Assembly (NCBI GenBank): GCA_963833125.1
Contig: CAWHWX010000019.1
Span: 1-64,000, forward strand
DNA: 64,000 nt
Direction of reading: 5' to 3'
DNA from: Candidatus Bathyarchaeota archaeon
Lineage (GTDB): Archaea; Thermoproteota; Bathyarchaeia; 40CM-2-53-6
Part shown: positions 24,764-57,936 of the stretch, one piece after another
Layout: each line of letters opens with the position of its first letter
Position numbering within the stretch: position 1 is the first letter of the stretch
Program-made: the position numbers and the translations under genes
Notes under the pieces: model-generated
Seen by the model: the letters and a program-made list of their open reading frames with translations, nothing else
The model's database searches: none
What the model was told of the DNA's origin: nothing

Positions 24764-25090
24764 GGCGGTGGCAGCATCCCCGTTGAATTGGTATTCTTCG
24801 CACCGGCGGTTTCCTCAGAATTTCCTAAACCCTGTGATCCCATCAGCGCCTGGGCGCTCGCCTTACGACTGCTCTCTTCCGAGCCTCATCGGGTTCGACG
24901 ATGAAGAAGTGGACCCTTCTCTTCAGAAGGGTTCCCAACTTACGCTGGCCCGGTGGGGCAGAATCTCATCGTTGACCCTGAAGGCTTACCGATGTCCAGA
25001 GCTACCTTTCCCCCGGGTTAACGGGTCCCCGCGTGTAGCCGATTTCGGGTCACAGGGAACGGCTGGCTCCCCGATCCTCCTACCACCGCC
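24764..25090 (-). ncRNA. ffs: Archaeal SRP (7S) RNA
   Basis: Terminal helix GGCGGTGG/CCACCGCC, Alu-domain CCCTGTGACCCGAAATCGG, helix 8 GGCTCGGAAGAGAGCAG, TTTATA box upstream. Confidence 0.92.
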
Positions 25091-41787: not shown

Positions 41788-42927
41788 CTATGGCGCTATT
41801 CCTGCGGTATTGCCAATACCTGCGATTATGACTAGTTCGCCCTCTTTGGTTGTTTCGAGGATTAGCTGTTTGATCTTCTCGATGACGGGGTCAACGGCGT
41901 CTGCGATCTCTTTCTTCATCGTGGTGACTGCTTCGAGGATGCTTTGTTTTATGACGATGGCGTAGACGGGTACGTTGAATTTCGTTGCTTCCTCTTCGAT
42001 CTTGAATCTTTCAGTTCCGATTCCGCCGATTGCGGCGCCGATTCCTTCGGCCACTTCGCCTGTCTTCTCTCCCTCAAGTTTGAGGGCTGCATCTACCATT
42101 ATTATCATGGAAGCCTTTCCGTTATTCTCTTCGAGTACTTGACGAATTGCGTCCCCTGGTTTGCCTACGTTGCCCCCCGGTCCCTCGGCTTTCAAGGTGA
42201 TTACTCTTCTTCCCTCCAATGTCGTCTCTGCGGCGACCATGTCCTTCGGAACTTTTCTGCTCTCGTGGCCGCGCATTAGTCTGTTAGCAACAAGTGGGCC
42301 GGCGCCGTCGCCTATGGGGTGGCCTTCAGCGAAAGCCTTCGATGCCCCCGTATAGGCTTCAGCCTCCTGCATGATTAGGGGAAGGAAGGCTTGAAGTTGA
42401 AATATGACCAGAATGCTGAAAGTTTTCTTACCGAGCAAGTACAAGTGCCGGACGATCTTGAACATGTAGTTTAGAGCCCAAGTGGCTTCGACAAGGTTCT
42501 CGAGATTGTTTACTTGGGTAGGGTTAGCCTCTGGCGCGATTCTCGCCACGTCTGACTTGAATTTCGCTTCCCTAACGTCAAGAAGATGGTCGAACTTGTT
42601 GACGATGCCTGCCGGGTCCATGCTGACGGGTTCAATGAGAAATTGTTCAAGTAACGTGTTTAACTTCGGCGTCGGATCATCCTTCGCTTTGCCTACGTCT
42701 CGAAGGGTCCTTACAGTAAGTGATTTGGCGTCGTTCTTCATGTTCTCAAGTTTTCTTACAGCGCCATCTATCTGCATGAGTGCCAATCGACTTTGAATTT
42801 GCTGTCCGAATAAGAACAGGGCAATGAACGAACCAACCCAAATTATGTTGATTAGGTTAGTGAATATGTTCTGGCCGAATAAGCCGGGACCGTTTTCTAG
42901 GACAATGCTGACAAGTGAAGGAAGCAA
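41788..42927 (-). CDS. DUF1512-family protein
   Basis: PIGDGAGP, KAEGPG, VDAALKLEGE, GIGNT. Confidence 0.85.
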   Translation of the reverse strand: MLPSLVSIVLENGPGLFGQNIFTNLINIIWVGSFIALFLFGQQIQSRLALMQIDGAVRKLENMKNDAKSLTVRTLRDVGKAKDDPTPKLNTLLEQFLIEPVSMDPAGIVNKFDHLLDVREAKFKSDVARIAPEANPTQVNNLENLVEATWALNYMFKIVRHLYLLGKKTFSILVIFQLQAFLPLIMQEAEAYTGASKAFAEGHPIGDGAGPLVANRLMRGHESRKVPKDMVAAETTLEGRRVITLKAEGPGGNVGKPGDAIRQVLEENNGKASMIIMVDAALKLEGEKTGEVAEGIGAAIGGIGTERFKIEEEATKFNVPVYAIVIKQSILEAVTTMKKEIADAVDPVIEKIKQLILETTKEGELVIIAGIGNTAGIAP

Positions 42928-43021
42928 TAAGATTCCTCTGAATTCCTTTTGATACCGCGGGCTGGCACGTTATAAACATTCATTCAATTGACTACACGTC
43001 AATCAACCAAGTCACAAAAAT

Positions 43022-43187
43022 GGAGTCGGCAGCGGTCCGGGACTCGCGTGGCCTTTCGGAACACACTACTACCCGAATCGCCTGAGAGATTCACTTCCGT
43101 GTTTCCGGTACGAGTCTGCGCCCATTTAGCTGCCCGCACTTTCGGAATGGGAACGGGTCCTAGCCCTCAGCTATGGCCGCCAACTCC
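43022..43187 (-). rRNA. rrf: 5S rRNA with a 39-nt insertion (43102-43140), candidate BHB intron
   Basis: GGCGGCCATAGC...CCCGTTCCCATTCCGAA[insert]CACGGAAGTGAA...AGTAGTG..GAAA..GCGAG..CGCTGCC; terminal helix GGAGTTGGCGGC/GCTGCCGACTCC. Confidence 0.92.
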
Positions 43188-43247
43188 AACAGACGCACTG
43201 TCCAGCGAATAATTAAACGTAGAGCCCGCCACAATTACTGCCTTCGT

Positions 43248-44417
43248 GTGGAATGTAGCTTGAGAGGGGCGGCCATAATTGGGGTTGGGACGACGTCAAT
43301 TACCGCAGGTTCTGGCAGAAGCCTAACGGAACTGTTCGTTGATGCCGCGAAGCAAGCTATCGACGAGGCAGGAATTGACAAAATTGACTCGATATACGTT
43401 GGAAATATGATGTCCGGTTTCTTACAGAACCAAGAACACCTCGGCGCATTGATGGCCACGGCGCTCGGCAGAGAGGGGGTGCCGACCTACAAGGTCGAAG
43501 GCGCTTGTGCCTCTGGCGGGGTCGCCACAAACGCAGCCGTAAAGGGATTACTTTCCGGACTAGAGGATGTCGTGCTAGTCGGTGCCGTTGAGAAGATGTC
43601 TGGTTATACTACCCCGGAGGTGACGGCAGGGTTGATGATGGCTGAGGATAGAGTCAAGGTTGCTTCAACTGGTGTCACGTTCGTTGGCCTCAACGCCATG
43701 ATCGCCAGACAATATATGCACAAGTACGAGGTCTCCCACGAGGCGATAGCTGAATTCCCGGTCTTATGTCACCAGAATGCATTGGACAACCCGAAAGCGC
43801 AATTTCGAAAGAAGATAGGCGTCCAGGATGTTTTGCAGTCTCCCTTAGTCGCAGATCCGCTCAGGCTTCTAGACTGCTCTGGCATAGGGGACGGGGCTGC
43901 AGCCCTTCTCCTAGCCCCAATGGAGGTGGCCAAGAAATACACGGATTCGCCCGTAGAGATAGCCGCGTCAGCAGTATCAAGTGATACGCTGAGCCTCTAC
44001 CAAAGGCCCGAGATTACCACTTTCGAAGCTTCCAGGAAAGCTTCAGATCGCGCATACAAAATGGCCGGTGTCCAACCCGAAGACGTTGACCTGCTTGAGG
44101 TTCACGATGCATTCTCCATCCTGGGTATTATGGCGCTGGAGGATCTCGGCTTCGCGGCGAAAGGTTCAGGGGCTAAGCTTCTGGAGGAAGGTGAATGTTT
44201 CCGAGACGCTCGGCTTCCAACAAACAGCTTCGGCGGACTCAAGGCCAGAGGCCACCCAGTCGGAGCAAGCGGGGTCTTCCAAGTTGCGGAGCTAGCCCTT
44301 CAACTCAAGAACGAGGCTGGGAAGTGTCAAGTGTCTGGCGCGGAAATCGGTCTTGCACAGAGTGTTGGTGGAATCGGCAGCACAGTCACAGCTCATATTC
44401 TTCGCAGGATGGATTAG
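43248..44417 (+). CDS. Thiolase (acetyl-CoA acetyltransferase family)
   Basis: EGACASG, EVHDAF, GGLKARGHPVGASG. Confidence 0.93.
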   Translation: MECSLRGAAIIGVGTTSITAGSGRSLTELFVDAAKQAIDEAGIDKIDSIYVGNMMSGFLQNQEHLGALMATALGREGVPTYKVEGACASGGVATNAAVKGLLSGLEDVVLVGAVEKMSGYTTPEVTAGLMMAEDRVKVASTGVTFVGLNAMIARQYMHKYEVSHEAIAEFPVLCHQNALDNPKAQFRKKIGVQDVLQSPLVADPLRLLDCSGIGDGAAALLLAPMEVAKKYTDSPVEIAASAVSSDTLSLYQRPEITTFEASRKASDRAYKMAGVQPEDVDLLEVHDAFSILGIMALEDLGFAAKGSGAKLLEEGECFRDARLPTNSFGGLKARGHPVGASGVFQVAELALQLKNEAGKCQVSGAEIGLAQSVGGIGSTVTAHILRRMD

Positions 44418-54255: not shown

Positions 54256-55196
54256 TTATTGTTTAGCTTTCGCGACGACGGATGAAAGTTCGTACAACAG
54301 GTTGGAGCCCAAGAGTGCAGTTACCTCAGCGTTGTCGTAAGGAGGAGAGATTTCTACCACATCAAATCCAATCAGGTTGATGCCGACAAGGCCCCGGACC
54401 AAGTCGAGGATCTCTCGGCTTGTGAAGCCACCAACTTCGGGTGTGCCGGTACCTGGGGCGAACGCTGGATCCACACCGTCTATGTCCAACGAAACATAGG
54501 AAACGCCACGTGCTAGTGCTTTGGTTCGCTTCAGGGTCTCTTCAACGCCGAGCCGGGTAAACTCCTTCATCGTTATGACCGAGAATCCCATCTTGCTCAA
54601 GTCAGTCAAATCTGAACTCTCATACACTGAGCCTCTTAATCCGATGTGGGCTGATCGTGCCGGATCGATCAGCTTCTCCTCTAACGCTCGCTTGAATGTC
54701 GTTCCGTGATTGTATTTTCGCCCAAAGTAACTGTCCCAGCAATCAGAGTGTGCGTCAAAGTGAATCAGCGACAGCCCTGGGCCGTGGACTTTGGCAGCTG
54801 CACGAAGGATTGCGGAGTGTTATCGAATGGTCGCCGCCGCAGACAGCTGGAATAACTCCTCCTGCGAAGAGCGTTCCTGTGGTATGTTCAATTTTCTCGA
54901 ATGTATCTTCGATATAGCCCGGTACGACGTTCACGTCTCCGAAATCTACCATGCCGAGAACCTGAAACGGCTTGATGTCCAAAACCGGATTGTAGGGACG
55001 CAACAACCGGGACGCCTCCCGCACGGCTCTTGGACCAAACCGGACCAGGTCGAAAAGTTGTCCCATCGTCGAAGGGTATTCCAAGGAAGGCTGCTTTCAC
55101 TCCATCCAGCAACTGTGTTGTTGGAAGGCGTGCGAAGGTAGTTACCTGAGAGAACCTCGGCGACTTAAGGGAGTCAATCTGTTCGCCCGGTTTCAA
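54256..55196 (-). CDS. speB: Agmatinase/ureohydrolase (frameshifted)
   Basis: GIPFD, GGDHSI, DAHSD, SLDIDGVDPAFAPGTGTP. Confidence 0.9.
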
Positions 55197-55446
55197 GGCA
55201 ATCGCCCTGCCCGGTTAAGCGGGAATTGCGCTTATGATTTTCGGTCCGATCAAACCCATCATGTAGAGGGTTTACGGGTCGTTCAATAGAAATCGGGGGC
55301 CTGATTCACAACGAGGGGAGAGTTTTGCTTATTCGAGTGACGGGGAGGTTCTAAGCGTTGACCAATGGACGTATCATCCATCTTCCTTTTATGCCAGTAA
55401 TCTCCGAGCGCCTTCTACGAATGGAGCGACTTCGTCAAGTAAGGAA

Positions 55447-56250
55447 TTGCGGTTGAACAATCGATCGAGGATACTCTTAGGCCTACTATTGGTTACAGTG
55501 TGCTTCATGGCGTTGAGTACGCTGGTCCAGTTTGGTAGGGCCCAAACTATCACTACCACTACTACAACTGAGACAGATACCAGTGTCGAAACGAGCATAG
55601 TCACGATTCCGGTAACAACAATCATACCTGTGACTTCGACGACCGTTGAAACCCAGACAGCGGAGAGCACAGCTACTACCGTCGAGACGACGGTTGTGAC
55701 GACTCTTGTGACCAACACGGCGGGCACCGTGACAGCGACGGTAACGAACACAGCAACTGACACGACAACCGTTCCCTCGACTACGACAATAACGAGTATT
55801 GTACTCGCAGTCGACGGGACTCAAACTGCAACCACCACCGTAACGTATCCGGTCTATCAGACCTACACGACGTATTACACGAGCCACTATCACAACGATT
55901 ATTCTAACTACTATTCTAACAATTGTTATACGAGCTATTACGCTTACAACTGTTATTCAAACTACTACAACCCTCCATACAATCCTCCCTATCAAAATCC
56001 GCCTTATCAGCCCCCTTACGCCGTTACAGTTCAAGTTACCCAAACAAACTATGTAGCGCAACCTCTTCAGACGTGGCAAACGCAGTTCTTGACTCAGACC
56101 CAGTATGTGACAGGGTATGTCACTTCGACCGTGAACCAGTTAGAAACACAACCGGTCACTGATCCGATCGCGGTTGTAGGCCTCATAGCTGTCGGCGTAG
56201 TGGCTGCGCTTGTAGCGGTTCTGGCCAGCCGGGTATTCAAGAGACCCTAG
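55447..56250 (+). CDS. Membrane-anchored Thr-rich protein with a Tyr/Asn/Pro-rich segment
   Basis: Signal peptide, Thr repeats, YNPPYNPPYQNPPYQPPY, C-terminal TM. Confidence 0.75.
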   Translation: MRLNNRSRILLGLLLVTVCFMALSTLVQFGRAQTITTTTTTETDTSVETSIVTIPVTTIIPVTSTTVETQTAESTATTVETTVVTTLVTNTAGTVTATVTNTATDTTTVPSTTTITSIVLAVDGTQTATTTVTYPVYQTYTTYYTSHYHNDYSNYYSNNCYTSYYAYNCYSNYYNPPYNPPYQNPPYQPPYAVTVQVTQTNYVAQPLQTWQTQFLTQTQYVTGYVTSTVNQLETQPVTDPIAVVGLIAVGVVAALVAVLASRVFKRP

Positions 56251-56318
56251 CCAGTTACACGTACAATTTGTTCCTGGCCGTCTAGAAGACTACGTGGCTC
56301 ATTTGATTTCTTGAGAAA

Positions 56319-56960
56319 TCAATAGGCGCGCGGGACCTGATAATAGCCAGTTGGCCTTCGTGAATATACGATAAGTCCAACTGTGACAATAATGACCGTC
56401 GCCAGTATGGCAGCGATTGCAACATAGGCGAAGATGAAGCCACGCCGGCCGTATGTTCCCTGTGTTCCGGGGGCGAATTGATCGGACGGTGGTTGGGTGA
56501 GTGTTGTCGTAATCACTTCTACTGTTCCGCTGTTTACTTGGAAGGCTTCGCCAGCGGTGGTTAGCTGGTTGTTGGCTTGGTTGCTGAAGATTGTTACGGC
56601 GATTTGTACCCAATGACCTTGGATTGAAGCTGGTAAGTTGAAACCTAATTGTCCTGTGAACGTGTATCCTCCATTGACGGATGTGAGGATCGTATTCACT
56701 GAATCGGCGGCAGTATTCGTGTTCAGGTCATAGGCGTTAGCGCTGGCGTAGAGTTGGTTGCCGTAGGGAGTTGAGCAGGTTGCAGAGAGGGGCACGATAA
56801 CGGTTACGATTGTGTTAGCGTAAACCGAAGGTATGATCGGATATCCCAGCTGCGCCGAACATGTATCGGCGTAAACAAAACTGGATCCGACCATTGCAAC
56901 TGCTAACGAGAGCGTTAGAAACGTTAGCAAATATCCACGCATATTCACAGAGATCCGCAC
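56319..56960 (-). CDS. Secreted beta-rich protein with C-terminal TM anchor
   Basis: Signal peptide, Cys pair, C-terminal TM plus RR. Confidence 0.7.
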   Translation of the reverse strand: MRISVNMRGYLLTFLTLSLAVAMVGSSFVYADTCSAQLGYPIIPSVYANTIVTVIVPLSATCSTPYGNQLYASANAYDLNTNTAADSVNTILTSVNGGYTFTGQLGFNLPASIQGHWVQIAVTIFSNQANNQLTTAGEAFQVNSGTVEVITTTLTQPPSDQFAPGTQGTYGRRGFIFAYVAIAAILATVIIVTVGLIVYSRRPTGYYQVPRAY

Positions 56961-57174
56961 GCAATACCTTAGCGGACATATTCGGCGTAGGGCCCGTTAT
57001 TAACAGATTGAATGATTCGTCTATTTAAGAAGACCAAACTACGCGTCGTACACTTGGAGTTTTCACACGTTCACCCATGGTGTACGGAGAATTCTACTTC
57101 CCAGTCGAAGTTTCTACCGGGTGTAAATAGACTTAACAACCCTTCTCGGAAACGAGACGGTAGGCGATTAAATA

Positions 57175-57936
57175 TTGAGTGAAAACGATCAGCCGAACGA
57201 GTCCAATCCAAAACAATCCAAGCAACCCAACCAACAAAATCAACCTGGGCAAACAACTAAGGGAGGACGTAGTTCCGCCGGGACTGCAGGCATCATCGGT
57301 CTAGTGTTAGTTGCAATCCTGGCCTTAGGATTTGCAGGATACACAGCGATGAACCCGCACGTAAACACTGTAACCCAACAGCAATTCCTTACGAACACCC
57401 AGAGCGTTTACAGCACCCAAATCCAAACCGTAACCAGCGTAATGCAAGTCACCCAAGCAGTTACGGTCACAAACGCTGCGACTTCCCCAAACGGTCAAGG
57501 GGTAAGTTCAGGGTACTACCAGTACTGCTCGTCGTATGGATGCATGTACTCTCCAGGGCCAGGCTACAACACCTATAACCCGAATAATCCGCCTAACCCG
57601 TGGTACCCGGGCTACTACAACGGCGCGTACTACGGTTACTGGAATGGCAACTTCGTTCCACCATGCCAGGCTGGTGGTTCCAATAATACGGTCACGTGCT
57701 CTGGATATCTATTCCAAGCACAGAACGGATGCACGGTGCTAGTGATCCCCGTAGCCAACGCCTACTACGCGGAAAGTTACACCTACCAGTACTATACTCT
57801 GCACAATCTGCCATCAAGTGCTCCAAGCAACGGGTCATGGATCAGCGTGACCGGCCAGCTATACCAAGGCTCCAACACGAGTTCCAGCGGCGCCTCATGT
57901 CCGGGTAATTACATCAACGTCAGCTCAATTTCCTAG
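57175..57936 (+). CDS. Membrane-anchored protein with Thr-rich, Tyr/Gly/Asn-rich and Cys-containing domains
   Basis: N-terminal TM, low-complexity middle, several Cys. Confidence 0.7.
   Translation: MSENDQPNESNPKQSKQPNQQNQPGQTTKGGRSSAGTAGIIGLVLVAILALGFAGYTAMNPHVNTVTQQQFLTNTQSVYSTQIQTVTSVMQVTQAVTVTNAATSPNGQGVSSGYYQYCSSYGCMYSPGPGYNTYNPNNPPNPWYPGYYNGAYYGYWNGNFVPPCQAGGSNNTVTCSGYLFQAQNGCTVLVIPVANAYYAESYTYQYYTLHNLPSSAPSNGSWISVTGQLYQGSNTSSSGASCPGNYINVSSIS

What the first reader, a model, noticed from the sequence alone, without database searches (positions are those of the whole stretch)
43102..43140. Candidate BHB intron in the 5S rRNA gene
Seen (minus strand): ...CCCAUUCCGAA|AGUGCGGGCAGCUAAAUGGGCGCAGACUCGUACCGGAAA|CACGGAAG.... 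Exon UCCG pairs with insert CGGA (4-bp central helix), flanked by 3-nt bulges AA|A and AA|C. The inner helix GUGCGGG/CUCGUAC has 7 pairs including 2 G-U; the outer helix is imperfect. Cutting after the second base of each bulge, the EndA rule, removes exactly 39 nt and restores the conserved loop C sequence CCCAUUCCGAACACGGAAG. Established: archaeal BHB introns occur in tRNAs, 16S/23S rRNAs and cbf5 pre-mRNA, and loop C binds uL5, so it is unlikely to tolerate a retained insert. I know of retained 5S insertions elsewhere in the molecule but not of a spliced 5S intron. Inference: this lineage splices its 5S rRNA with the tRNA endonuclease/RtcB system.
Basis: partly seen in the sequence, partly recalled or inferred. 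Interest (0 to 1): 0.92.

Follow-up and report, generated by a model that had tools for sequence, protein, structure and literature searches.

The report
Spliced archaeal intron in 5S rRNA
The only 5S ribosomal RNA gene of this soil/peat archaeon is interrupted by a 39-base intron of the archaeal bulge-helix-bulge type that public RNA data show cut out and closed into a circle, which appears to be the first intron described in a 5S rRNA gene.

Summary
Window 43024-43184 (minus strand) is a 5S rRNA gene with a 39-nt insert (43102-43140) in loop C, and it is the only 5S match in the genome.

- A 4-bp helix UCCG/CGGA.
- 3-nt bulges AA|A and AA|C.
- A 7-bp inner helix.
- An imperfect outer helix.

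- **Relatives.** They carry inserts of 17 to 410 nt at exactly this site. The bulges and central helix are conserved and the inner helices covary.
- **RNA.** A peat metatranscriptome holds a 69-nt closed-cycle contig, which is the 39-nt intron joined end to end with 0 differences. It also holds an abundant 5S contig that skips exactly 43102-43140.
- **Enzymes.** The genome encodes two EndA paralogs and RtcB.
- **Origin.** In relatives the full-length 410-nt intron encodes a single-motif LAGLIDADG homing endonuclease under purifying selection. The window's intron looks like an ORF-less remnant of it.
- **Second site.** A second BHB insertion site, 10 nt upstream, occurs in other lineages of the phylum.

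I found no paper describing a 5S rRNA intron. EndA cleavage and exon ligation in this organism remain inferred.

The parts
43024..43184 (-). 5S rRNA gene (161 nt with intron; 122 nt spliced). It is the only 5S match in the 39-contig genome and is not linked to the 16S-23S operon.
   Evidence: RF00001 at 62.3 bits, model positions 1-120. The 16S and 23S genes lie on another contig.
43141..43184 (-). 5' exon (44 nt), ending ...CCCAUUCCGAA
   Evidence: The joint in the RNA contig runs from 43101 to 43141.
43102..43140 (-). 39-nt BHB intron (AGUGCGGG...CUCGUACCGGAAA), without an ORF
   Evidence: It is skipped exactly in X16 record 5 and circular in X16 record 6. There is no second copy in the genome.
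43024..43101 (-). 3' exon (78 nt), beginning CACGGAAGUGAA
43143..43146 (-). H: exon strand (UCCG) of the 4-bp central helix
   Evidence: It pairs 4 of 4 with 43104-43107. Across 20 sequences this helix is 98.8% paired, with one compensatory C-G to U-A change.
43140..43142 (-). 5' bulge AA|A; the 5' splice site lies between 43141 and 43140
   Evidence: AA|A in 23 and AA|U in 1 of the 24 distinct site-1 inserts.
43133..43139 (-). Inner helix, 5' strand (GUGCGGG)
   Evidence: 7 pairs with 43108-43114. All 7 aligned pairs show changes on both sides across relatives.
43108..43114 (-). Inner helix, 3' strand (CUCGUAC)
   Evidence: Identical to the 3' end of the 410-nt endonuclease-bearing introns.
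43104..43107 (-). H': intron strand (CGGA) of the central helix
43101..43103 (-). 3' bulge AA|C; the 3' splice site lies between 43102 and 43101
   Evidence: A-N|C in 24 of 24 distinct site-1 inserts.
43147..43150 (-). Outer helix, 5' strand (CCAU), pairing with ACGG at 43097-43100 with one A.C mismatch
   Evidence: the pair at alignment columns 4-80 is G-C in 7 sequences and unpaired in 13, G000 among the 13.
43208..43217 (-). TTTAATTATT, a TATA-box-like element centred about 28 nt upstream of the 5S 5' end (inference from position)
   Evidence: Read directly. No tool test was run.
43016..43020 (-). TTTTT run 4 nt after the 5S 3' end, a likely archaeal terminator (inference)
   Evidence: Read directly.

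Best explanation
The 39 nt at 43102-43140 are an archaeal bulge-helix-bulge (BHB) intron in loop C of the sole 5S rRNA gene of a Bathyarchaeia genome.

**Proposed mechanism.**
1. In the primary transcript the exon sequence UCCG pairs with the intron's CGGA instead of lying in loop C. This builds a 4-bp helix flanked by two 3-nt bulges.
2. The splicing endonuclease EndA cuts after the second base of each bulge. This genome has two EndA paralogs, as in the heterotetrameric type that accepts relaxed motifs.
3. RtcB joins the exons to give a normal 122-nt 5S rRNA and closes the intron into a 39-nt circle.

**Origin.** The intron is a shrunken, ORF-less descendant of a 410-nt mobile intron that in related species encodes a single-motif LAGLIDADG homing endonuclease. 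That enzyme's likely target is the nearly palindromic intronless site TTCCGAA^CACGGAA.

**Shown here:** the gene, the motif, its conservation and covariation, the circular intron RNA, an intronless-form RNA, the enzyme genes, and the endonuclease family.

**Inferred:** which enzymes act, exon ligation in this strain, homing activity, and descent by deletion.
For: **1. Anatomy.** See the observation check.

**2. Comparative evidence at this site.**
- In 41 genomes of the same order, 32 have a 5S match, 34 matches in all. Of these, 24 are 121-122 nt and 10 are 139-188 nt. All 10 long ones have the insert after ...CGAA.
- Over all loci in hand, parsed 24 distinct intron-bearing genes of 17-410 nt. 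Searches added 3 more.
- Among the 24, H/H' pairs 4 of 4 in 23, B1 is AA|A in 23 and AA|U in 1, and B2 is A-N|C in 24.

**3. Covariation** on 20 short introns with the named structure.
- 87.3% of cells are paired, against 30-44% with partners slid by 1-3 columns.
- 8 of 15 pairs show changes on both sides (1 of 500 shuffles reach this).
- The covariation score is 0.215 (0 of 500 shuffles reach this).
- All 7 inner-helix pairs show double changes.
- G161 has exon UUCG with intron CGAA, a compensatory change across the exon-intron helix.

**4. RNA evidence** from peat metatranscriptome X16.
- Record 6 is 69 nt at depth 3.9 with 0 differences. It reads AA + the whole intron + the first 28 nt of the intron again.
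- 69 = 39 + 30, which is what a k = 31 assembler prints for a closed 39-nt cycle. Reads must therefore cross the intron's 3'-to-5' junction.
- Record 5 is 139 nt at depth 470 with sequencing adapters at both ends. It covers 43025-43101 and 43141-43179 and skips exactly the 39 nt.
- No X16 contig crosses an exon-intron border.

**5. DNA presence.** A wetland DNA contig (X1) holds the intron with 0 differences inside it.

**6. Enzymes and intron load.**
- Two PF01974 EndA genes are present (frames of 185 and 190 aa). Only the first shows the Tyr/His/Lys pattern by eye.
- One RtcB gene is present.
- 14 of 19 tRNA matches are 90 nt or longer, so BHB splicing is heavily used here.

**7. Intron family.**
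- Three 410-nt introns carry 142-aa ORFs matching Pfam LAGLIDADG_3 for the two tested, E 7e-13 and 1e-11.
- dN/dS is 0.09-0.13 among the three.
- A deletion series of 330, 248, 56, 36 and 26 nt keeps the ends.
- The window's intron shares AGUGCGGG (against AGUACGAG) at the 5' end and the last 15 nt with L086.
Against: - **Spliced contig not strain-specific.** The abundant spliced-form contig in X16 differs from the window at 43042 (A>G). It equals the 5S of intronless relatives such as G019, so exon ligation in this strain is not proven.
- **An unspliced RNA-library contig exists.** Soil RNA run X7 holds a 218-nt contig at depth 2.7 that keeps the insert and runs 51 nt past the 3' end. It has 2 substitutions and 1 deletion in the intron loop. 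It could be a precursor, DNA carry-over, or a retained insert in a relative.
- **Data type.** All four runs are assembled contigs, not reads. The circle has a depth of only 3.9, contigs drop rare forms, and nothing can be quantified.
- **Motif not fully canonical.** The outer helix has an A.C mismatch, and the minimum-energy fold does not draw a clean second bulge.
- **Folding energy is unremarkable.** z = -0.67 and -0.24.
- **Completeness.** The genome is 87.8% complete, so an unassembled second 5S copy cannot be excluded.
- **No biochemistry.**
Confidence: 0.9

Rival explanations
1. Retained expansion segment. The 39 nt stay in the mature 5S rRNA as an extra hairpin on loop C, as in the enlarged 5S rRNAs of Halococcus and some Clostridia.
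For: Retained 5S insertions exist, some of them in loop C (Stepanov & Fox 2021, PMC7812874; abstract and passages read). RNA run X7 holds a low-depth contig that keeps the insert. The insert is a self-contained hairpin.
Against: - A retained hairpin has no need for an intron segment that pairs with exon UCCG, nor for two 3-nt bulges kept in all 24 distinct inserts while length ranges from 17 to 410 nt.
- A retained segment would not appear as a closed 39-nt circle in RNA.
- Some inserts carry a 142-aa endonuclease ORF.
- The X7 contig runs 51 nt beyond the mature 3' end, as a precursor or DNA would.
Confidence: 0.04
2. Excised but not religated. EndA removes the insert and the 5S rRNA works as two pieces (44 + 78 nt) held by base pairing, like fragmented bacterial 23S rRNA after removal of intervening sequences.
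For: The spliced-form contig may stem from intronless relatives, so ligation of these exons is not shown directly.
Against: The intron itself is ligated into a circle, so the ligase acts on this substrate's ends. RtcB is present. In all known BHB introns both products are joined (established knowledge, recalled).
Confidence: 0.04
3. Artefact or dead gene. The insert is an assembly error, or this 5S copy is a pseudogene and the working copy is missing from the 87.8%-complete assembly.
For: The genome is incomplete, in 39 contigs.
Against: - An independent wetland DNA contig holds the same insert with 0 differences.
- Twenty-six other distinct 5S genes carry inserts at this site.
- Each of the 10 intron-bearing genomes has this as its only 5S match, including genomes 96-98% complete.
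- The exons are intact and identical to a relative's working-length gene.
- The intron RNA is present in a metatranscriptome.
Confidence: 0.02

Closest known systems
Archaeal BHB introns of 16S and 23S rRNA genes in Thermoproteales/Desulfurococcales, some encoding LAGLIDADG homing endonucleases (I-DmoI, I-PorI, I-Tsp061I)
   Same: - A BHB motif at the exon-intron borders.
- Sporadic presence at fixed sites in conserved rRNA.
- Wide length range, with ORF-bearing and ORF-less forms.
- A circular excised intron.
- A LAGLIDADG ORF.

The best solved-structure matches of the ORF, all weak, are 2dch ('putative homing endonuclease'), I-MsoI and I-DmoI. Jay & Inskeep 2015 (PMC4496867) was seen only as a listing and abstract start. 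The enzyme and host names are recalled.
   Different: - The host gene is 5S rRNA, for which I found no intron report.
- The endonuclease has a single LAGLIDADG motif (142 aa, presumably a homodimer) rather than the double-motif monomers, which I recall for the named enzymes.
- Its reading frame runs 11 codons into the 3' exon.
- The lineage is mesophilic soil and peat Bathyarchaeia.
BHB introns of archaeal pre-tRNAs (canonical 37/38 and non-canonical positions)
   Same: The same motif geometry: exon strand of the central helix, 3-nt bulge, inner helix, intron strand, 3-nt bulge. The same presumed enzymes. Mini-intron sizes of 17-40 nt. The genome is rich in tRNA introns.
   Different: The host RNA and site differ. 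The central helix is made with loop C of 5S instead of the anticodon loop.
Retained expansion segments of prokaryotic 5S rRNA (Halococcus morrhuae, Thermoanaerobacterales; Stepanov & Fox 2021, PMC7812874)
   Same: Extra sequence inside a 5S gene, partly in the helix III / loop C region. Such genes are overlooked by annotation.
   Different: Those are kept in the mature RNA where tested, and the paper's text does not contain the term 'bulge-helix-bulge' or 'splicing'. The only archaeal order named in its abstract is 'Halobacterales'. Here the insert has a BHB and is found as a circle. The authors themselves note that untested inserts might be excised.
BHB motifs in 16S/23S processing stems and the Cbf5 pre-mRNA intron
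   Same: EndA/RtcB acting outside tRNA; circular products.
   Different: Those are processing of flanks or an mRNA intron. Papers seen here state that 5S rRNA is not processed by this route (PMC12918454, passage read).

Membership tests
Archaeal bulge-helix-bulge (BHB) intron | Two 3-nt bulges on opposite strands separated by a 4-bp helix, with splice sites after the second bulge base | tested here: met
   UCCG/CGGA pairs 4 of 4, with bulges AA|A and AA|C. The helix is 98.8% paired across 20 sequences. The RNA joint at 43101/43141 fits, with a 2-nt slide ambiguity.
Archaeal bulge-helix-bulge (BHB) intron | Flanking helices on both sides (strict hBHBh' form) | tested here: inconclusive
   The inner helix has 7 bp. 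The outer helix has 3 of 4 pairs with an A.C mismatch in the window, and is perfect in the 7 of 20 sequences that have CCCGU. This fits the relaxed forms accepted by two-subunit EndA (recalled knowledge).
Archaeal bulge-helix-bulge (BHB) intron | Excised intron is ligated to a circle | tested here: met
   X16 record 6: a 69-nt closed-cycle contig of the 39-nt intron with 0 differences, in an RNA library. These are contigs, at depth 3.9.
Archaeal bulge-helix-bulge (BHB) intron | Exons are joined to give the functional RNA | tested here: inconclusive
   A joined form at depth 470 skips exactly 39 nt. It has one exon difference from the window and matches intronless relatives.
Archaeal bulge-helix-bulge (BHB) intron | Cleavage by EndA and ligation by RtcB | not testable with these tools
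   The genes are present: two PF01974 matches (84.1 and 52.3 bits) and one PF01139 match (574 bits). No assay was possible.
Archaeal bulge-helix-bulge (BHB) intron | Sporadic presence at a fixed site, variable length and sequence, precise restoration of the host RNA | tested here: met
   In the order sample of 105 genomes, 24 have the intron junction and 58 the intronless junction. There are 27 distinct inserts of 17-410 nt. Removal restores the 122-nt 5S.
Mobile intron with LAGLIDADG homing endonuclease gene | Intron-encoded LAGLIDADG ORF | tested here: not met
   The window's 39-nt intron has no ORF. Relatives' 410-nt introns do, matching PF14528 at E 7e-13 and 1e-11. The window's intron is filed as a derivative, not as a mobile member.
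Mobile intron with LAGLIDADG homing endonuclease gene | Endonuclease cuts the intronless allele and drives homing | not testable with these tools
   Indirect evidence only:
- dN/dS of 0.09-0.13.
- A 10-of-14 palindromic target with the insertion at its centre.
- Intronless alleles with identical exons in the same genus.
Retained 5S rRNA expansion segment | Insert present in mature 5S rRNA | tested here: not met
   In X16 the insert is seen only as a circle and the abundant 5S form lacks it. The one insert-bearing RNA-library contig (X7, depth 2.7) overruns the gene's 3' end by 51 nt. This is contig data, so the result is not final.

The most novel reading that the evidence does not exclude
5S rRNA introns are not a one-off but an overlooked, active system.

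- A homing-endonuclease-driven BHB intron is currently spreading among soil Bathyarchaeia.
- Its endonuclease is translated either from the unspliced 5S precursor, where the ORF ends in the 3' exon, or from the circular intron, where circularisation supplies a stop 6 codons after the junction in 2 of 3 intact copies.
- On this reading an rRNA precursor or its circular intron would double as an mRNA.
- ORF-less mini-introns persist at two fixed loop-C / helix-III sites across several lineages of the phylum because BHB splicing has become a folding or quality-control step in 5S maturation.
Probability: 0.2. Interest if true: 0.85.

Novelty: new variant of a known kind. Interest (0 to 1): 0.78.

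Why it matters
Archaeal BHB introns were known in tRNA, 16S and 23S rRNA and one mRNA. In the papers I could search, 5S rRNA is treated as free of introns and outside the EndA pathway.

- **A new EndA/RtcB substrate.** 5S joins the substrates of this pathway, with comparative support and RNA-level support from public metatranscriptome contigs.
- **Effect on annotation.** 5S genes with longer introns escape standard annotation. The Rfam model at its gathering score missed all 4 genes with introns of 248-410 nt among the 15 loci scanned. The endonuclease ORF is called as a 142-aa protein whose tail is really 5S exon in 36 of 41 clusters.
- **A natural series.** The intron runs from a full mobile form down to a 17-nt remnant at a single site.
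- **A new endonuclease.** It is a compact homodimer-type LAGLIDADG enzyme with a short, highly conserved rDNA target.
- **Wider occurrence.** The same kind of intron at a second 5S site in other lineages suggests the phenomenon is widespread in the phylum.

Tried and rejected
- **Folding energy as a test.** The z-scores are not significant, so energy alone neither supports nor rejects the motif. I relied on comparative and RNA evidence.
- **ARAGORN with intron mode on the genome.** It gave 31 tRNAs with implausible introns of up to 1218 nt. I dropped it as unreliable and used the Rfam tRNA model instead.
- **Second copy of the intron in the genome (blastn-short).** Only 12-13-nt chance matches turned up, so there is no sign of the mini-intron elsewhere.
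- **Rfam scan of 15 archaeal-titled loci at the gathering score.** It found 11 of 15 5S genes and missed the 4 with introns of 248-410 nt. Those were recovered by regular expressions. Counts from RF00001 searches therefore undercount long introns.
- **Pattern surveys.** They only see genes with the exon motif of this order. Both patterns hit nothing in the 296 genomes of other orders, which says nothing about those orders. They also miss G161, whose H' is CGAA.
- **Uninformative runs.** X17 held only an intronless relative's form (11 differences, reaching 42905). X7 held an unspliced low-depth contig. Parts without cover in any run are not evidence.
- **Solved-structure search with the endonuclease.** Only weak matches came back (best E 0.023), so the family call rests on Pfam.
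- **Literature.** Five searches found no report of a 5S intron. led to Stepanov & Fox 2021.
- **Not done.** I did not predict a structure for the endonuclease. I did not identify the other lineages (families f42, f49, f64, f29, f16), which are unnamed handles. I did not examine the roughly 70 extra nt of the 16S and 23S genes.
Full report
**What is there**

The window holds an archaeal SRP RNA and one 5S rRNA gene. The 5S match runs from 43184 to 43024 on the minus strand and covers the whole Rfam model, at 62.3 bits against a gathering score of 38. It has one insertion of about 40 nt in loop C.

It is the only 5S match in the 3.07-Mb, 39-contig genome, which is 87.8% complete. The 16S and 23S genes lie together on another contig, so this 5S gene stands alone.

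Read directly, a TTTAATTATT element lies about 28 nt upstream of the 5' end and a T5 run follows the 3' end. This fits an independent archaeal transcription unit, by inference.

**The motif**

| Element | Sequence | Result |
|---|---|---|
| Central helix | exon UCCG / intron CGGA | 4 of 4 pairs |
| 5' bulge | AA\|A | 3 nt |
| 3' bulge | AA\|C | 3 nt |
| Inner helix | GUGCGGG / CUCGUAC | 7 pairs, 2 of them G-U |
| Outer helix | CCAU / ACGG | 3 of 4 pairs, one A.C mismatch |

Cutting after the second base of each bulge removes 43102-43140. That leaves a 122-nt 5S whose exons are identical to the intronless gene of a species of the same genus, G016.

Only 15 of 20000 shuffles of the insert gave a full central helix plus 3 or more inner pairs.

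Against the motif, folding energy is not better than shuffled sequence (z = -0.67 and -0.24). The minimum-energy fold draws a 5-bp helix, one AAA bulge and an asymmetric internal loop rather than a textbook second bulge.

**Relatives**

In 41 genomes of the same order (G000 included), 32 have a 5S match, 34 matches in all. Of these, 24 are 121-122 nt long and 10 are 139-188 nt. All 10 long ones have their extra sequence at the same place, after ...CGAA. Each of those 10 genomes has only that one 5S match.

A scan of one genome per species for the 3' junction motif gave 90 stretches. Twenty of them parse as 5S genes with an insert at this site; the other 70 did not parse as 5S. Eighteen of the 20 are titled Candidatus Bathyarchaeota, Bathyarchaeia or 'archaeon', which names the lineage. 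Two are titled as Acidobacteria-type MAGs.

After collapsing identical sequences I hold 24 distinct intron-bearing and 20 distinct intronless 5S genes. Three further site-1 cases were found later: G161, G051 and G531.

Among the 24:
- Insert lengths are 17, 19, 20 (four genes), 26 (two), 28 (two), 35 (three), 36, 39 (two), 56, 66, 91, 248, 330 and 410 (three) nt.
- The central helix pairs 4 of 4 in 23. The exception is L102, with 3 of 4.
- The 5' bulge is AA|A in 23 and AA|U in 1.
- The 3' bulge is A-N|C in all 24.
- The inner helix differs in sequence from group to group.

On an alignment of 20 short introns, the named structure gave these counts:

| Measure | Observed | Control |
|---|---|---|
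| Cells paired | 87.3% | 30-44% with partners slid 1-3 columns |
| Pairs with changes on both sides | 8 of 15 | reached by 1 of 500 shuffles |
| Covariation score | 0.215 | reached by 0 of 500 shuffles |
| Inner-helix pairs with double changes | 7 of 7 | not applicable |

One genome (G161) has exon UUCG with intron CGAA. That is a compensatory change across the exon-intron helix.

The shuffles ignore relatedness, so these figures overstate independence. The slid controls do not suffer from that.

**Frequency**

In a sample of 401 genomes of the class, the intron junction pattern hits 24 genomes and the intronless pattern hits 58. All hits lie within the 105 sampled genomes of G000's order. One genome, 52% complete, has both.

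The patterns cannot see other orders, because the exon motif differs there.

**RNA evidence**

I laid four runs on window 42900-43300. All four are assembled contigs.

- **X16, peat metatranscriptome, spliced form.** Record 5 is a 139-nt contig at depth 470 with sequencing adapters at both ends. It covers 43025-43101 and 43141-43179, a joint that 'skips 39' exactly at the predicted borders.
- **X16, circle.** Record 6 is a 69-nt contig at depth 3.9 with no difference from the window.
  - It reads AA, then the whole intron, then the first 28 nt of the intron again.
  - Its first 30 letters equal its last 30.
  - 69 = 39 + 30, the printout of a closed 39-nt cycle in a k = 31 graph.
  - The library must therefore contain reads crossing from the intron's 3' end to its 5' end. 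This is the signature of the circular intron that BHB splicing produces.
  - A linear excised intron, a retained insert or contaminating DNA would not give this.
- **X16, borders.** No X16 contig crosses an exon-intron border.
- **X1, wetland DNA.** A contig holds the intron with no difference inside it, so the insert is real DNA outside this assembly.

Three points count against, or limit, this evidence:
- The spliced contig has one exon difference from the window (43042 A>G). It is identical to intronless relatives, so it does not prove exon ligation in this strain.
- Soil RNA run X7 has a 218-nt contig at depth 2.7 that keeps the insert and overruns the 3' end by 51 nt. It has three small changes in the intron loop. 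It may be a precursor or DNA of a relative.
- Contigs give neither amounts nor absence.

**Enzymes**

The genome has two PF01974 (EndA) genes, in open frames of 185 and 190 aa. By eye, only the first keeps the Tyr/His/Lys pattern. It also has one RtcB gene.

Two EndA paralogs are the make-up of the heterotetrameric enzyme of Crenarchaeota, which accepts relaxed motifs. This point is recalled knowledge and an inference here.

Fourteen of 19 tRNA matches are 90 nt or longer, so this organism splices many BHB introns.

**Origin of the intron**

Three relatives carry a 410-nt intron at the same site with a 142-aa ORF.
- The two ORFs tested match Pfam LAGLIDADG_3, E 7e-13 and 1e-11, with a single motif GFVDGEG.
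- The three ORFs are 69-74% identical in protein, with dN/dS of 0.09-0.13, so they are under selection.
- The frame starts at intron base 18 and runs 11 codons into the 3' exon. Read on the circle instead, it stops 6 codons after the junction in 2 of 3 copies.

Introns of 330 nt (frameshifted), 248 nt (in-frame loss of the motif), 56, 36 and 26 nt align as nested deletions that keep both ends. The window's 39-nt intron shares the 5' AGUGCGGG (against AGUACGAG) and the last 15 nt with one full-length copy, L086. Its two A-to-G changes turn A-U pairs into G-U pairs, which keeps the helix. I read it as an ORF-less remnant, by inference.

The intronless site is TTCCG-AA^CA-CGGAA. It is 10 of 14 palindromic, with the insertion point at the centre. 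That suits a homodimeric LAGLIDADG enzyme (inference).

The protein family has 41 clusters in the large protein collection. Thirty-six end in the exon-encoded tail. Their names, where given, are 'hypothetical protein', 'LAGLIDADG family homing endonuclease' or 'intein/homing endonuclease'.

**Beyond this order**

RF00001 searches of 151 genomes of the class and 151 of the phylum found further long 5S genes.
- **Site 1 elsewhere.** G051, in another order, and G531, in another family of the phylum, have 32- and 18-nt inserts at the same site, with the same bulges.
- **A second site.** Eleven fetched genes have 17-33-nt inserts 10 nt upstream: three of family f29, six of ten long ones in f42, and two of f49.
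  - The site lies between Rfam model positions 34 and 35.
  - The layout is CCGU AC|A, an inner helix of 3-7 bp, GCGG or GCGA, then A-A/G|C.
  - The central helix pairs 4 of 4 in 9 genes and 3 of 4 in 2, and there is no outer helix.
  - I have no RNA data for this site.

**Comparison with what is known**

This works like the BHB introns of archaeal 16S and 23S rRNA genes, some of which carry LAGLIDADG endonucleases, and like tRNA introns. The differences are the host gene, the single-motif enzyme that reads into the exon, and the mesophilic lineage.

It is not like the retained 5S expansion segments surveyed by Stepanov & Fox 2021 (PMC7812874; abstract and passages read). The only archaeal order named in that abstract is 'Halobacterales'. 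The text does not contain 'bulge-helix-bulge' or 'splicing', and the authors note that untested inserts might be excised.

A 2026 paper states that 5S rRNAs, unlike 16S and 23S, are not processed through excision and circularisation (PMC12918454, passage read). A study of CPR bacteria found no insertion of 100 bp or more in any 5S gene (PMC11270868, passage read).

Searches for '5S rRNA intron' and six phrase variants returned 0 papers. Three broader searches returned nothing on point by title and abstract. The library lacks most subscription journals, and supplements were closed.

**Verdict**

- My confidence that this is a genuine, spliced BHB intron is 0.9.
- The remaining doubt concerns exon ligation in this strain and the use of contig rather than read data.
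- It is a new variant of a known kind: a known splicing system and a known type of mobile intron in a host gene not previously reported to have introns, with hints that the phenomenon is widespread.

Noticed in passing
L152-L154 (G102, G082, G132), L159-L164 (G434, G469, G497, G462, G483, G525), L167-L168 (G413, G490): A second 5S insertion site lies 10 nt upstream of the window's, between Rfam model positions 34 and 35. It carries 17-33-nt inserts with a BHB-like motif (CCGU AC|A ... GCGG/GCGA A-A/G|C) in three other families of the phylum. In family f42, 10 of 12 genomes with a match have a long 5S. No RNA data were available.
   Followed up: partly
L086:315-743, L097:6555-6983, L136 (410-nt introns); L077, L046 (330 and 248 nt): The full-length form of the intron encodes a 142-aa single-motif LAGLIDADG endonuclease whose last 11 codons are 5S exon. 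Gene callers report it as a free-standing protein: 41 clusters, 36 of them with the exon-encoded tail. Two clusters (P0006, P0007) are extended at the N-terminus (161 and 164 aa).
   Followed up: partly
L105, L112 (named records of the genome-contig scan): Two contigs from MAGs titled as Acidobacteria-type bacteria (Candidatus Acidoferrum sp.; Candidatus Acidiferrales bacterium) carry a bathyarchaeal 5S gene with the intron. The records may be mislabelled or the bins mixed.
   Followed up: no
G333:C59:14942-14961 and G333:C47:581-599: One genome, 52% complete, holds both an intron-bearing and an intronless 5S junction on different contigs. It may be a mixed bin or two alleles.
   Followed up: no
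window 24766-25088 (-): Archaeal SRP RNA (RF01857, 149.6 bits). ARAGORN finds no tRNA gene in the 64-kb window.
   Followed up: no
G000 whole genome: Only 19 tRNA covariance-model matches were found in a 3.07-Mb genome, and 14 of them are 90-152 nt long. tRNA genes here seem heavily interrupted, and many are probably missed.
   Followed up: no
G000:C12:52720-54269 and 54445-57498: The 16S (1550 nt against a 1478-position model) and 23S (3054 nt against 2987) genes are each about 70 nt longer than the models. I did not check whether these are mini-introns or expansions.
   Followed up: no
L102:3505-3618: A divergent 'uncultured archaeon' 5S gene has a 91-nt A+T-rich insert at site 1. Its inner helix reads 9 consecutive pairs, a mismatch, then 3 more, but only 3 of 4 central pairs form (exon CCCG).
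   Followed up: no
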